Assembly (NCBI GenBank): GCA_040377305.1
Contig: JBEIPA010000008.1
Coordinates: forward strand, 1 to 64,000
Direction: 5' to 3'
DNA: 64,000 bases
Source of the DNA: Flavobacteriales bacterium
GTDB taxonomy: Bacteria; Bacteroidota; Bacteroidia; Palsa-965
Position 1 is the stretch's first letter; each line of letters opens with the position of its first letter. The position numbers were made by a program, and so were the translations under genes. This document shows positions 16,311 through 20,433 of this stretch, one piece after another. Under the pieces are notes generated by a model. The model was not told where the DNA came from, ran no database searches, and was given only the letters and a program-made list of their open reading frames with translations.

Positions 16311-16494
16311 CAGTAGGCAGTTGCGCAGGCATTCAGTTGGCAGTCGATGAATGGAAGGATTCAGCAGATTTCGAGATCCGCGCGATAAATCGCACGGAAC
16401 CTTGAAGTAGCTTTCATCAACTGCCAACTGCCCTACTGCATACTGCCCTACTGCATACTGCCCTACTGCTTACAGCCCTACTGCATACTGCCTA
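16311..16494. repeat. CAGTAGG/CAGTTGG-family inverted element with a 15-mer tandem arm and a nested REP
   Basis: CAGTTGGCAGTCGATGAA versus TTCATCAACTGCCAACTG (17/18); (CTGCCCTACTGCATA)n at about 16428-16490; inner CCGCGCGATAAATCGCACGG. Confidence 0.8.
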
Positions 16495-17247
16495 CTCCTT
16501 CTTCGGTTTGTAGTCGTACGTAATCTGAATAATCTTCGGCTCCTCCGGTTTAGGTGGATTCATTTCCGGATTCTCTTCCGAAAGTTTCGCAATCTGCTCC
16601 GGAGTCAGCAAGGCCCTCTCCTCTTCCGTCAGATGACTTTCCAAATCTTCGATCTCCTCTTCATCCTTCCAGTAGTTTTCCGGTTGCGGACCTTCTTTTC
16701 TCAAGGCATAAGCCAGAATAACTCCGGTGAGCGCCCCATACAAATGTCCTTCCCAGGAAACCGTTGGATCGAATGGAAAAATGCCCCACACCATGCTTCC
16801 GTAGAGGAAAATGAGCAGGAAGGAAATCATGGTAAGACGTGGAACTTTTCGGATGAATCCGCTGAAGAAAAGAAAGAAAGCCATGCCGTAAACTACACCG
16901 CTAGCTCCGATGTGAAAGTGTTGACGTGCGAACATCCACAAAAGAATTCCATTGGTAAAATAGATGAGCCAGAAAACTTTTCCTGCAATCTCCCGGTAGT
17001 TTGACCACAGGAGAAATCCGAGAAGCAACAGTGGAATTGTATTACCAAATAAGTGTTCAAAGTCAGCGTGCAAAAGCGGTGTTGTAATTATGCCAATTAA
17101 TCCGCCTGCTGTGCGCGGAAACACCGAGTAATCGGCCCAAGACTCCTGTAAAAACCCTTGCGCTAGATGAATGAGCCAGATCAGCACCACGAAAGTGAAT
17201 GGGAAAAGCTGTCGGAATAAAATAAGGTGCCGGGCAGGGTTTGACAT
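16492..17247 (-). CDS. Rhomboid family intramembrane serine protease
   Basis: HADFEHLFGN, GASG, SWEGHL; multiple TMs. Confidence 0.9.
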   Translation of the reverse strand: MSNPARHLILFRQLFPFTFVVLIWLIHLAQGFLQESWADYSVFPRTAGGLIGIITTPLLHADFEHLFGNTIPLLLLGFLLWSNYREIAGKVFWLIYFTNGILLWMFARQHFHIGASGVVYGMAFFLFFSGFIRKVPRLTMISFLLIFLYGSMVWGIFPFDPTVSWEGHLYGALTGVILAYALRKEGPQPENYWKDEEEIEDLESHLTEEERALLTPEQIAKLSEENPEMNPPKPEEPKIIQITYDYKPKKE

Positions 17248-17381
17248 GCGCTTGTTTGCTCAAAGTTAGTACCACGTGCGGAATTGGATGAAATTCGGGT
17301 CAGAACGTCTGAATGTTCCTCCAGTCAAATGACATTGCGACAAATACAAGGCAAATTGGCGTGAATTGTTCCTACCGCCCG

Positions 17382-17389
17382 TATCTTTG
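17382..17389 (+). promoter_or_regulatory. -7 promoter box TATCTTTG 3 nt before ATG 17393
   Basis: Perfect TAnnTTTG match. Confidence 0.65.
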
Positions 17390-17392
17390 AGT

Positions 17393-17923
17393 ATGCCCCT
17401 CCGGCTCAAATCTGCTGTATTACTTGCCTTCTGCGCTGTGTTTTTCTTCAACACGAGCGTATTCGGCGTTGTGTTGTCTGCAGAGCTTTACGTGCATCAA
17501 CTCGCACAGCTGGAAAAAATCAAAAAGAAAAAGCACAAGGACATCATTGAACTCCGAATCGACAAGCAACTTGTTGAATCGCGCAACGAGCAATTTCAGT
17601 GGGAGAAAGATTGGGAATTCCGCTGGCTGGGAGAGATGTATGACATTGAAGATTCTTTTCTCGACGGTGAAACATGGGTCTTCTTCGTAAAACACGACAC
17701 GAAAGAAGATATGTTGCGAAAGAATATGGATCGGCATGCTCAAGATGAAAACACGAAACGTAATGCTCAACTCAAGAAAAACCTGAAAGGCACAGAGTAT
17801 TTTGAGCAAGTCGCATTTGTTGTTCAGTTATACACCGAAGCAATTCTGCAATCTCCGGAACCTGAGTCAAACTTGGGATCAATACATTCTGTCATTCCGG
17901 ATCCTCCACCCTGGTTAAGCTAA
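17393..17923 (+). CDS. Membrane-anchored hypothetical protein with a C-terminal polyproline motif (putative regulatory leader of the TonB-dependent receptor)
   Basis: N-terminal hydrophobic helix, EFRWLGEMYDI core, ends IPDPPPWLS*. Confidence 0.75.
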   Translation: MPLRLKSAVLLAFCAVFFFNTSVFGVVLSAELYVHQLAQLEKIKKKKHKDIIELRIDKQLVESRNEQFQWEKDWEFRWLGEMYDIEDSFLDGETWVFFVKHDTKEDMLRKNMDRHAQDENTKRNAQLKKNLKGTEYFEQVAFVVQLYTEAILQSPEPESNLGSIHSVIPDPPPWLS

Positions 17924-18004
17924 GTGTTTCTTAAGTGCTTATGCACTGAAAAAATCATTGTCCGCTCCCGCTTGATATCGGGACGGAGAAACTTACTTAA
18001 CCAG
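17911..18004 (+). promoter_or_regulatory. Putative cis-regulatory multibranch RNA structure covering the receptor initiation region
   Basis: 17911-17931 pairs with 17987-18004 (18 bp, two bulges) and encloses hairpins at 17934-17947 and 17961-17987. Confidence 0.65.
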
Positions 18005-18009
18005 TTCAC

Positions 18010-20433
18010 ATGAAAAAGAAATTATTCTTGTGGCTGTTTGCGCTTGCAGTCGGGATAACCGTGCAGGCACAGATAGTCACAGTGATTGATCACACCACGC
18101 GACAAACGATTCCCGGCGTAATTATTTACAGCAAGGGCTCCACTGTTTCCGTTGTGACCGATGCGAAAGGACAGGCAGATGTTAGTCCACTGAAAGGTGT
18201 AGACAGCCTGTACATTCGCCAATTCGGTTACACAGAAGTAGTGATTGCATTCTCCGCGATAGGTGGTGATACTACAACTATTGAGCTCACCGGTTCCGAC
18301 ATTTCCATGAATGAAGTTGTGATCTCGGCAAATCGCTGGGAGACCGATCAAATGGAAACGCCATACCGAATCGAGAAAATCAATTTACGTGAAGCGCAAT
18401 TTCAGAGTCCGCAAACAACTGCAGATCTTCTTGGGAGCGGAGGAAATGTTTACGTACAAAAAAGTCAGCTCGGTGGAGGTTCGCCGATGATCAGGGGATT
18501 TGCAACTAACCGGGTGATGATTGTGGTCGATGGTGTTCGGATGAACAATGCAATTTTTCGCGCGGGAAATCTTCAGAATGTCATCTCACTCGATGCGGGC
18601 GGATTTGAAAGTGCGGAAATACTTTTCGGACCCGGTGCAGTAATGTATGGCAGCGATGCCATTGGTGGCGTAATGGATTTTCATACGCTGCAACCCAAGT
18701 TTTCTGCAGGAGTGAAACCAACTTTTACAGGAAGTGGATTTGGACGTTTCTCCTCTGCGAATCTGGAAAAGACCGGACATGTTGACTTCAACATTGGTTT
18801 GCAACGTTGGGCATTCATAACCAGCTTCACGTATTCGGGGTACGATGATTTGCGTGCAGGCTCTGTGGGTGAGTCGTACTATCTGCGTCCGTATTATCAG
18901 CAATCATTCAATGGAGTCGACTCTATGGTTGCAAATAGTGATCCTTCGGTTTTGGTTCACAGTGGCTACAAGCAAATGAACGCCATGCAGAAAATCCGTT
19001 TCAAACCAAGTGAACACCTTGAGTTTGATTATGGGTTTCACTACTCTGCTACTTCGAATATCCCGCGTTATGATCGCCTGGTTCTCGATGCAAATAACGA
19101 CAGCGTATTCGATAATGCGGAATGGTATTACGGTCCGCAAACATGGATGATGAATCGCCTTGGCATCACGCATTCGAAAGCAAATAAGATGTACGATCAC
19201 TTCCGCGTGGTGATTGCACAGCAGTCGTACGAAGAAAGTCGTCATGACCGGAGATTCGGCAGCAAGAAACTGCGTCATCAAACAGAAGGTGTGGCTATCA
19301 TCTCGGCGAATCTGGATCTTGATAAAAAATACGGAGAGAAAACTACGTTCTATTACGGAGCGGAGTACGTGTACAACCGTATTACTTCCGAAGCATTTCG
19401 TGAACACATTGAAACCGGAGTAGTTGATCCTCCAATCAACACGCGTTATCCAGACGGCTCCACGTGGATGGCCTTGGGCGCGTACGTAAGTGTGAAACAC
19501 AAAGTGTCGGAGAAATTTCTCGTGAATACCGGAGTGCGTTACAGTCACTTTCTGATCGAAGCGGATTTCGACACTACTTTGTTTCCGTATCCGTACACGC
19601 ATGCGAGTCTGAGCAAAGGTGCGTTGAATGGTAGTATCGGATTTGTTTATTCACCAATGAAAAACTGGACCATTTACGTAAACGGCTCCACCGGATTCCG
19701 TGCACCGAACATTGATGACATCGGTAAAGTGTTTGAATCGGAAGCAGGATCAATTGTAGTTCCGAATCCGAATCTCGAACCCGAATATGCAATGGGTGGC
19801 GAAATCGGAACATCTGTTGTTGCAGGTAATTTCATGAAGCTCGACGTTTCAACTTACTACACACAGCTCAACAATGCATTTGCACGTCGCAATTTTCAGA
19901 TCGACGGACAAGACAGCATTTTGTATGATGGGCAGATGAGTCAGGTGCAGGCGATACAGAACATTGCGAAAGCGTATGTGTTCGGAATTCAGGCTGAAGT
20001 GAATTTCTACTTCGGTCACGGAATCGGAATGCGCAATACGTTCAACTGGATGAAAGGCGAAGAACAAAGCGGAGATAGTCTTCTTTACTATCCGTTGTCG
20101 CATGCAACTCCAGTTTACGGAAGCTCGCATCTAACGTACGAGCGCAAAAAACTAAAGCTCGACTTCTATGTGCTGTACAACGGAAAAATGGATTACTCTG
20201 ATTTCGCACTCTCAGAAAGAATCGACAACGGAGCGTATGTGAAAGACGAGAGTGGTTTGCCATTCACGCCTTCATGGTACACCTTGAATTTCAAAGCAGG
20301 ATATTACATCAGCAAAAACCTTTCTGTGAATGCAGGACTTGAAAACATCACCGATCAGTTGTACCGCCCTTACGGATCAGGCATTACTTCCCCGGGAAGA
20401 AATTTCATTGTTGCATTGCACGGAAGGTTCTAA
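18010..20433 (+). CDS. TonB-dependent receptor (heme/iron-receptor-like)
   Basis: N-terminal extension, EVVISANR, plug with GPGAVMYGSDAIGGV, GFRAP and NPNL motifs, C-terminal Phe. Confidence 0.95.
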   Translation: MKKKLFLWLFALAVGITVQAQIVTVIDHTTRQTIPGVIIYSKGSTVSVVTDAKGQADVSPLKGVDSLYIRQFGYTEVVIAFSAIGGDTTTIELTGSDISMNEVVISANRWETDQMETPYRIEKINLREAQFQSPQTTADLLGSGGNVYVQKSQLGGGSPMIRGFATNRVMIVVDGVRMNNAIFRAGNLQNVISLDAGGFESAEILFGPGAVMYGSDAIGGVMDFHTLQPKFSAGVKPTFTGSGFGRFSSANLEKTGHVDFNIGLQRWAFITSFTYSGYDDLRAGSVGESYYLRPYYQQSFNGVDSMVANSDPSVLVHSGYKQMNAMQKIRFKPSEHLEFDYGFHYSATSNIPRYDRLVLDANNDSVFDNAEWYYGPQTWMMNRLGITHSKANKMYDHFRVVIAQQSYEESRHDRRFGSKKLRHQTEGVAIISANLDLDKKYGEKTTFYYGAEYVYNRITSEAFREHIETGVVDPPINTRYPDGSTWMALGAYVSVKHKVSEKFLVNTGVRYSHFLIEADFDTTLFPYPYTHASLSKGALNGSIGFVYSPMKNWTIYVNGSTGFRAPNIDDIGKVFESEAGSIVVPNPNLEPEYAMGGEIGTSVVAGNFMKLDVSTYYTQLNNAFARRNFQIDGQDSILYDGQMSQVQAIQNIAKAYVFGIQAEVNFYFGHGIGMRNTFNWMKGEEQSGDSLLYYPLSHATPVYGSSHLTYERKKLKLDFYVLYNGKMDYSDFALSERIDNGAYVKDESGLPFTPSWYTLNFKAGYYISKNLSVNAGLENITDQLYRPYGSGITSPGRNFIVALHGRF

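What the first reader, a model, noticed from the sequence alone, without database searches (positions are those of the whole stretch)
17382..18012. Candidate ribosome-arrest leader protein plus RNA switch controlling a TonB-dependent receptor
Seen: a probably leaderless ORF (TATCTTTG-AGT-ATG, 17393) encodes an N-terminal membrane helix, a soluble domain and the C terminus IHSVIPDPPPWLS*. The codons right after the prolines (CTGGTTAAG-C-TAAG-TG-TTTCT, 17911-17931) are complementary to AGAAACTTACTTAACCAG (17987-18004), which ends 5 nt before the receptor ATG (18010). This 18-bp stem closes a junction containing two hairpins (17934-17947, 17961-17987) and covers the A-rich initiation region. Known: PPP/PPW are strong stalling motifs; SecM, MifM and Bordetella CruR (upstream of a TonB transporter) use stalled ribosomes to control downstream expression; Bacteroidota initiation depends on unstructured upstream A-rich sequence. 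Inference: a ribosome stalled at DPPPW would cover the 5' arm and free the receptor start. Ligand binding or export force on the exported domain would release the stall and switch the receptor off. The leader lacks the CxxC/RAPP of CruR, so this may be a distinct Bacteroidota family. The receptor has FRAP/NPNL motifs but no His between them, so its ligand is unclear.
Basis: partly seen in the sequence, partly recalled or inferred. Interest (0 to 1): 0.82.

Follow-up and report, generated by a model that had tools for sequence, protein, structure and literature searches.

The report
Proline-stall leader unzips receptor start
A small membrane-anchored gene that ends in three prolines sits just before an outer-membrane uptake receptor gene, and its last codons are predicted to pair with the receptor's start region; this layout recurs across a large unnamed family of Bacteroidota genes, so it likely works as a ribosome-stalling switch that senses a still-unknown signal, probably a metal.

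Summary
Observation confirmed. The 176-aa ORF (17393-17923) has no Pfam/NCBIfam family but belongs to a large Bacteroidota family (1,648 clusters at 50% identity; 62 of 301 genomes sampled across the phylum). All 126 complete members recovered end in PP or PPP, 120 of them 2-6 residues before the stop, with a nearly fixed distance from an invariant acidic domain. Searching from the receptor side, 23 of 29 orthologues carry the leader directly upstream. The post-proline codons pair with the downstream start region better than chimeric pairs in 45 of 116 loci (controls 7-10%), with unrelated arm sequences and in the register a stalled ribosome would cover. About half the loci show no such stem. 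It works like Rhodobacter CutF (PPP stall opens a stem) but fails CutF/CruR membership: no CxxC, no RAPP, over 150 aa, and a predicted folded beta-domain with no fold match. Stalling, ligand, direction and topology are untested; heme-type receptors and heme ABC genes downstream hint at iron or another metal. The scan earlier noted a different, three-cysteine Bacteroidota leader family, not this one. New variant of a known kind.

The parts
17382..17389 (+). Bacteroidota -7 promoter box (TAnnTTTG), 3 nt before the leader ATG; leaderless or near-leaderless start inferred
   Evidence: only such box in 17250-18030; consensus from PMC6847099
17393..17923 (+). Leader ORF, 176 aa, unnamed Bacteroidota family
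17411..17482 (+). N-terminal hydrophobic segment (about residues 7-30), likely uncleaved membrane anchor; orientation unresolved
   Evidence: hydropathy; family median uncharged segment 25 aa; helix in model
17543..17707 (+). Predicted small beta-domain (residues 51-105) with near-invariant E75, Y83, D84, D102, E105; candidate sensor
   Evidence: conservation; AlphaFold pLDDT above 90 over the strands; no fold match
17786..17899 (+). Variable-sequence, fixed-length linker (residues 132-169), no predicted structure
   Evidence: E105 to last Pro median 72 aa, 10th-90th percentile 69-74, n=99
17900..17914 (+). DPPPW codons, candidate stall site (P171-P173 at 17903-17911)
   Evidence: stall strength of PPP, DPP, PPW from PMC5811046
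17911..17925 (+). 5' arm of the long-range stem (last codons and stop of the leader); may extend to 17931
17934..17947 (+). Inner hairpin 1 (not conserved in sequence)
17961..17987 (+). Inner hairpin 2 (not conserved in sequence; no U-tract on the + strand)
17991..18004 (+). 3' arm of the stem, covering -19 to -6 of the receptor start codon
18010..20433 (+). TonB-dependent receptor, 807 aa; nearest models are heme/hemoglobin types, below their cut-offs; no His between FRAP and NPNL

Best explanation
The 176-aa gene is likely a cis-acting sensor leader: a ribosome that likely lingers on its final prolines would cover the 5' arm of a predicted stem and free the start region of the receptor gene, and the conserved acidic domain likely sets how long it lingers in response to a ligand, most likely a metal ion. 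Shown by sequence and comparison: the ORF, its invariant PP end, the fixed spacing, the position at the head of operons, and the co-varying complementarity. Predicted: the stem and its opening by a ribosome footprint. Inferred: translation from a leaderless start; membrane targeting with the domain outside the cytoplasm (72 residues would span tunnel plus translocon); a cation site formed by E75, D84, D102 and E105 (plus Cys at position 99 in most relatives, Val here); release of the stall when ligand is bound, so the receptor is made when ligand is scarce (about 2:1 over the opposite, CutF-like direction). My guess for this receptor is iron or heme status, at roughly even odds against other metals.
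For: PP within the last 16 aa in 126 of 126 complete members found by a profile lacking the C-terminus, 97 with PPP, 120 with 2-6 residues to the stop; background 48 of 3,499 ORFs. 142 of 146 full-length library representatives have PP in the last 14 aa. All four Pro codons are used, so the peptide is what is kept. 23 of 29 receptor orthologues have the leader directly upstream, all with PP. Native arm pairs rank in the top 5% of chimeras in 45 of 116 loci, 28 of 55 before this receptor family, 32 of 79 after clustering at 45% identity; shifted windows 12 and 11 of 121; host-genome gene pairs 7 of 100 with slightly different windows. Arm identity among the top loci averages 0.34. Pairing peaks +9 to +21 from the penultimate Pro codon and -23 to -11 from the ATG. 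Here the opening cost of -20..+3 falls from 11.4 to 5.4 kcal/mol once the P site reaches the prolines, and is 10.4-12.5 at all earlier codons tested. The same leader heads unrelated genes, as a portable regulator would. Precedent: CutF (PMC9973294; bioRxiv 2025.02.05.636593). Three leader-headed operons include a heme ABC ATPase over the NCBIfam cut-off (3 of 3 scanned).
Against: No expression, stalling or ligand data. 60 of 116 loci do not reach the top 10% in the chimera test, and only 26 of 89 showed more than 2 kcal/mol relief by a ribosome footprint (18 of 200 controls). With the P site on Pro172 the start region is only partly freed (mean unpaired 0.30, against 0.14 free, 0.53 at Pro173, 0.56 at the stop), so ordinary termination opens it too. 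The genome encodes EF-P, which normally resolves PPP, and the CutF proline motif was not a strong staller in a heterologous fusion. Residues upstream of the prolines are poorly conserved, unlike SecM-type arrest sequences (recalled). Charge bias does not settle topology (43% vs 41%, n=99). Targets are mixed (haloperoxidase-like, AhpD-like, M43, MetE) and do not point to one ligand. Many related genomes are not independent.
Confidence: 0.55

Rival explanations
1. Same stall-and-unzip switch, but the input is export or membrane-insertion force (SecM, VemP, MifM logic) or envelope state, not a bound ligand.
For: Membrane anchor plus fixed 72-residue spacing; nearly all targets are exported proteins or head operons of them; one sensor precedes many cargo types.
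Against: None of 96 downstream genes matched a sec or yidC family (9 had no match); more receptor under poor export is hard to rationalise; four near-invariant carboxylates with no invariant basic partner suggest a binding site.
Confidence: 0.15
2. Constitutive translational coupling: any ribosome finishing the leader opens the stem, the prolines only lengthen the window, and the protein has a separate job or none.
For: The stem overlaps the stop codon, and a terminating ribosome opens it as well as one at Pro173.
Against: Does not explain an invariant domain held at a fixed distance from the prolines, nor PP in all members including those without a stem; 6 of 29 orthologues manage without a leader.
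Confidence: 0.13
3. Control acts on transcription, as for CruR: a stalled ribosome blocks Rho-dependent or intrinsic termination in the intergenic region, and the stem is secondary.
For: CruR precedent (PMC9426467); C exceeds G around the leader end (skew 0.11-0.13, partly forced by Pro codons); about half the loci lack the stem; 10 of 116 have a terminator-like hairpin with a U-rich tail, one very strong (L008).
Against: No terminator-like site at this locus; the 3' arm is tied to the start codon across loci; terminator-like hairpins are not clearly enriched in stemless loci (7 of 60 vs 3 of 56). It may still apply to loci with long spacers.
Confidence: 0.1
4. An ordinary accessory membrane protein of the receptor, with a chance or processing hairpin behind it.
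For: It has a predicted folded domain and travels with one receptor family.
Against: It also precedes unrelated enzymes, lies upstream rather than downstream, and keeps PP beside the stop in 126 of 126; pairing is position-specific and above four controls.
Confidence: 0.05

Closest known systems
CutF of Rhodobacter capsulatus (cutF-cutO; PMC9973294; bioRxiv 10.1101/2025.02.05.636593)
   Same: Exported leader with a C-terminal PPP; stalling lets the ribosome melt a stem over the downstream initiation region; acts in cis; short spacer.
   Different: CutF has a cleavable signal and a CxxxC copper site, is under 150 aa, hides a Shine-Dalgarno sequence and turns on a detoxifying oxidase. This leader has no Cys motif, is 176 aa, has a predicted acidic beta-domain, and its stem covers -19 to -6 in a phylum that does not use Shine-Dalgarno pairing.
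CruR of Bordetella pertussis (DUF2946; PMC9426467)
   Same: First gene of an operon with a TonB-dependent transporter; proline-based C-terminal motif; ligand-released arrest is the logic I infer here.
   Different: CruR has CxxC and RAPP, is predicted poorly structured, does not need its signal peptide, and acts through Rho-dependent termination.
CutF-like list D (5,334 proteins, 19% Bacteroidota; PMC9973294)
   Same: PP within 15 residues of the C-terminus, N-terminal targeting signal, TonB-like neighbours, Bacteroidota included; all predicted only.
   Different: Filtered to under 150 aa with Cys or His metal motifs; this family (mostly 165-190 aa, carboxylate motif) falls outside the filter. 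I did not open File S1.
RAPP/RGPP uORFs and SecM, VemP, MifM, ApcA, ApdA, ApdP monitors (PMC12992588, PMC10987492)
   Same: Localisation signal, spacer and C-terminal proline motif controlling the next gene; RAPP-type uORFs are reported before TonB receptors across Gram-negative bacteria.
   Different: No RAPP-like motif in 0 of 126 members; no sec or yidC target seen.

Membership tests
DUF2946 / CruR / CutF | Match to the DUF2946 profile | tested here: not met
   No such Pfam match for the protein, 32 members or 150 members; nearest DUF2946-named Atlas cluster scores only 0.86 with 92 of 256 features
DUF2946 / CruR / CutF | CxxC or CxxxC copper motif | tested here: not met
   One Cys only, in the hydrophobic segment; motif in 6 of 126 members
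DUF2946 / CruR | C-terminal RAPP | tested here: not met
   0 of 126
CutF-like proteins (survey rules of PMC9973294) | PP within the last 15 residues | tested here: met
   126 of 126
CutF-like proteins (survey rules of PMC9973294) | Length under 150 aa | tested here: not met
   176 aa; most representatives 165-190 aa
CutF-like proteins (survey rules of PMC9973294) | Cleavable Sec signal peptide | tested here: inconclusive
   About 25 uncharged residues, no conserved cleavage motif in the alignments; no signal-peptide predictor available
CutF-like proteins (survey rules of PMC9973294) | Same-strand downstream gene within 1,000 nt | tested here: met
   86 nt here; 121 of 126 within 20-260 nt
CutF mechanism | Stem hiding the downstream initiation region, overlapped by a ribosome at the prolines | tested here: met
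   Computed only; top 5% against chimeras in 45 of 116 loci
CutF mechanism | Ligand-dependent stalling at PPP, action in cis | not testable with these tools
   Needs toeprinting and reporter genetics
CruR mechanism | Rho-dependent termination between the genes | not testable with these tools
   Only a C-over-G skew was computed
Sec/YidC monitoring substrates (SecM, VemP, MifM, Apc/Apd) | Lies upstream of secA, secDF or yidC | tested here: not met
   Downstream gene here is a TonB-dependent receptor; 0 of 96 downstream genes matched such a family, 9 had no match
Known riboswitches and leader RNAs (Rfam) | Covariance-model match | tested here: not met
   Two sub-threshold eukaryotic matches only in 17200-18100
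Heme/hemoglobin TonB receptors (for 18010-20433) | Score over TIGR01785/TIGR01786 cut-off; His between FRAP and NPNL (motif rule recalled) | tested here: not met
   204 vs 317 and 210 vs 324 bits; no His; nearest solved relative PhuR

The most novel reading that the evidence does not exclude
A phylum-wide family of nascent-chain sensors with a new folded, carboxylate-lined domain reads periplasmic iron (or another non-copper metal) while still tethered in the translocon, and switches heme-type receptors, heme ABC systems and haloperoxidase-like clusters by unzipping a Shine-Dalgarno-independent start region. It would be a trans-membrane translational metal switch outside the cysteine/histidine class, and one module of a set of interchangeable PP-ended sensors, of which this genome carries at least five more.
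Probability: 0.3. Interest if true: 0.88.

Novelty: new variant of a known kind. Interest (0 to 1): 0.72.

Why it matters
Only two metal-sensing stalling leaders (CruR, CutF) turned up as tested cases in my searches, both copper- and cysteine-based and both in Proteobacteria. This family is large, unnamed, and sits in front of one of the commonest receptor subfamilies of the class (94 of 151 genomes have the receptor; 23 of its 29 closest orthologues have the leader). It supplies a defined, testable switch for how Bacteroidota, which ignore Shine-Dalgarno sequences, regulate initiation by structure, and a candidate new ligand-binding domain. It also suggests that many 'hypothetical proteins' before Bacteroidota transporters are regulators acting in cis.

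Tried and rejected
Pfam, NCBIfam and Rfam gave no family for the leader or the RNA; no solved relative by sequence. Fold searches: whole model matched only long helices, best Z 6.0; domain model had no Foldseek match at E 0.001 and best VIA Z 4.0, rmsd 5.1 over 65 residues; this does not prove a new fold. Locus scans by peptide pattern were poor: 2 loci in genome contigs, both already held, and none in metagenome contigs. No RNA holder listed; contigs of four DNA runs did not span the stem, so no strain-level compensatory change could be seen. Column-wise covariation was dropped because spacers do not align; the chimera test replaced it. One search anchored on the first PP run, which misplaced about ten loci; one search corrected this and its numbers are the ones used. 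Intrinsic terminator and sigma-70 promoter at this locus: none above chance. Cys at position 99 does not sort cleanly by target class (30 of 60, 16 of 21, 13 of 18). Charge bias did not settle topology. A motif search for EF-P found nothing; the family search found it. No complex was predicted, since binding is not claimed. Literature searches that found no description of this family; the library lacks most subscription papers.
Full report
1. Observation. The region 17880-18030 folds at -40.1 kcal/mol, z -4.61, better than all 200 shuffles. The box is the only one in 17250-18030. F. johnsoniae starts transcription 4-5 nt after this box (PMC6847099, passages); in this genome the box-to-ATG spacing peaks at 4 nt (101 of 3,499 ORFs), with 23 at 3 nt and 2-3 at 0-2 nt, so a leaderless start is plausible, not certain.

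2. The leader family. No Pfam or NCBIfam family matches and no solved structure by sequence. Twenty close proteins (49-100% identity, the query included) share the N-terminal helix and the EF.W.GEMYD block, diverge over about 25 residues, then reconverge on PP two to three residues before the end. A profile finds 1,648 clusters at 50% identity (E up to 0.001); the Atlas clusters are unnamed and mostly Bacteroidota. It was found in 62 of 301 genomes across the phylum, patchily (one family 0 of 63), and in 30 of 35 genomes of the host family, 23 of 23 of good quality. I fetched 40 of the roughly 50 phylum matches not returned as loci; those left were weak, broken or at contig ends, plus a few weak intact ones. 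In 247 aligned sequences E75 (96%), Y83 (95%), D84 (91%), D102 (94%), E105 (90%) and P172 (99%) stand out; position 99 is Cys in 77% but Val here. AlphaFold gives helix 3-49, a beta-domain 51-101 at pLDDT above 90, helix 103-131 (low confidence in the domain-only model) and no structure for 132-176. No fold match stands out. From the strand register I infer that E75, D84, D102 and E105 lie close together; I could not inspect coordinates.

3. The proline end. With a profile cut before the linker, all 126 distinct complete members have PP in the last 16 residues, 97 have PPP, and 120 end 2-6 residues later. Most of these loci were first found with profiles that included the prolines, so the receptor-side test below is the independent one. 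Among library representatives, 142 of 146 long enough have PP in the last 14 residues; three of the other four have PPP slightly further in. Background is 48 of 3,499 host ORFs. All four Pro codons are used. The distance from E105 to the last Pro has median 72, with 80% within 69-74 (n=99). PPP, DPP and PPW are listed as strong stalling triplets (PMC5811046, passages). The genome has EF-P.

4. Targets. Of 96 downstream genes scanned (97 found; one was another leader), 71 have a Plug domain; 7 are vanadium-haloperoxidase/PAP2-like, 3 CMD/AhpD-like, 2 M43 peptidases, and one each DUF3179, FG-GAP, cobalamin-independent methionine synthase and a truncated carboxypeptidase-regulatory-like start; 9 had no match. 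In 20 longer regions the leader generally heads the run of genes. Four operons add a periplasmic binding protein and FecCD-type permease, and in the three with the ATPase in view it passes the heme ABC cut-off; others are haloperoxidase-like plus ASPIC/UnbV clusters. From the receptor side: 94 of 151 class genomes have a close relative; of the 29 best non-self loci, 23 have the leader directly upstream, all with PP, and 6 do not (seven of the 23 were already held). The receptor is nearest to heme/hemoglobin models but under their cut-offs (PhuR nearest solved).

5. The RNA. Spacers cannot be aligned, so I paired each locus's post-proline window (+3 to +30 from the penultimate Pro codon) with every locus's -28 to -3 window. 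Of 121 loci with 20-260 nt spacers, 116 had non-overlapping windows. Native pairs were in the top 5% in 45 of 116 and the top 10% in 56; 28 of 55 before this receptor family, 17 of 61 before other targets; 6 of 14 among loci new from the receptor search; 35 of 79 for spacers up to 120 nt, 10 of 37 for longer. Windows shifted upstream or downstream gave 12 and 11 of 121; host-genome gene pairs gave 7 of 100. After clustering leaders at 45% identity, 32 of 79 representatives remained in the top 5%, and the arms of top loci are only 34% identical. Pair probability peaks at +9 to +21 from the penultimate Pro codon and -23 to -11 from the ATG, which includes the -12/-13 positions discussed for initiation in PMC6847099. 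A 27-nt footprint lowered the opening cost of the start region by more than 2 kcal/mol in 26 of 89 loci against 18 of 200 control pairs. At this locus the cost drops from 11.4 to 5.4 at the prolines and to about 4.7 near the stop; mean unpaired probability of -20..-1 is 0.14 free, 0.30 at Pro172, 0.53 at Pro173 and 0.56 at the stop. So a terminating ribosome also opens it; the prolines would set how long. About half the loci show no stem; some start codons may be mis-picked, 10 of 116 have terminator-like hairpins, and an internal box occurs in 3 of 116. One locus (L007/L110) comes from G012, an unpublished genome; it counts once in these tallies, as a PP-ended, stem-positive locus, and no conclusion depends on it.

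6. Mechanism. Most likely a cis-acting sensor leader: translated from a leaderless or very short leader, targeted by its hydrophobic segment, with the acidic domain emerging about 70 residues ahead of the prolines; dwell at DPPPW keeps the 5' arm covered and the receptor start open; ligand binding changes the pull on the chain and so the dwell. Stalling, topology, ligand and direction are all inferred. For an importer I favour release on ligand binding (receptor on when scarce) by about 2:1, and a metal, possibly iron, from the carboxylates and the heme-type context. Rivals: export monitor (0.15), constitutive coupling (0.13), Rho or terminator control (0.10, more likely for long-spacer loci), accessory protein (0.05).

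7. Comparison. It works like CutF: PPP-dependent stalling that overrides EF-P and melts a stem over the cutO start (PMC9973294, passages and sections 10-11; bioRxiv 2025.02.05.636593, abstract and discussion). It shares the target type with CruR (PMC9426467, first seventh of the text and passages). It is a member of neither: no DUF2946 match, CxxC/CxxxC in 6 of 126, RAPP-like in 0 of 126, over 150 aa. The 2023 survey already predicted PP-ended leaders in Bacteroidota but filtered to under 150 aa with Cys/His motifs; its File S1 was not opened and could bear on overlap. The RAPP/RGPP survey (PMC12992588, passages and section 13) and the Sec/YidC survey (PMC10987492, passages) cover other motifs. 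Searches found no description of this family. An earlier scan note (e1-9891254) describes a three-cysteine Bacteroidota PP leader; that is a different body, and I did not test its claims.

8. Verdict. Real feature; unnamed, large family; new variant of the CutF/CruR kind with a different candidate sensor domain and a Shine-Dalgarno-independent switch. Interest 0.72.

Noticed in passing
G000 C30:159904-160287, C52:249976-250317, C1:26537-26902, C2:39341-39655, C28:22848-23225 (all +): Five more small ORFs with a hydrophobic N-terminus and PP 2-5 residues before the stop, 41-106 nt ahead of transport-like genes, with unrelated His-rich, acidic or three-Cys bodies; the C1 one ends in the same PDPPPW. 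Three show the same arm pairing (rank 0.004, 0.026, 0.078). Downstream genes judged by eye only.
   Followed up: partly
L008 spacer (G056:C41): A strong hairpin (-22 kcal/mol) with a U-rich tail lies between leader and receptor, with no start-region stem: possible transcription-attenuation version of the switch.
   Followed up: no
L163:9434-11647 (-): Tandem layout leader, methionine-synthase-like gene, leader, ASPIC/UnbV gene.
   Followed up: no
L161:5037-12434; L162; L160: Two or three leader paralogues cluster within a few kb, heading different receptors; in L161 one leader is followed 438 nt later by another leader rather than a target.
   Followed up: no
L164, L165, L168-L171: The leader repeatedly heads clusters of vanadium-haloperoxidase/PAP2-like lipoproteins with ASPIC/UnbV, DUF3179 and unnamed exported genes; one search found no paper on this cluster.
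   Followed up: partly
window 16492-17247 (-); L177:8894-10843: A rhomboid gene lies divergent from the leader here; in L177 a similar gene sits between two divergent leaders, one before an M43 peptidase.
   Followed up: no
G000 whole genome: The -7 box lies 3-7 nt before the first ATG in 242 of 3,499 ORFs, peak 4 nt, suggesting many leaderless genes.
   Followed up: no
L137, L157: Two of six receptor orthologues without the leader have their own -7 box within about 50 nt of the picked start.
   Followed up: partly
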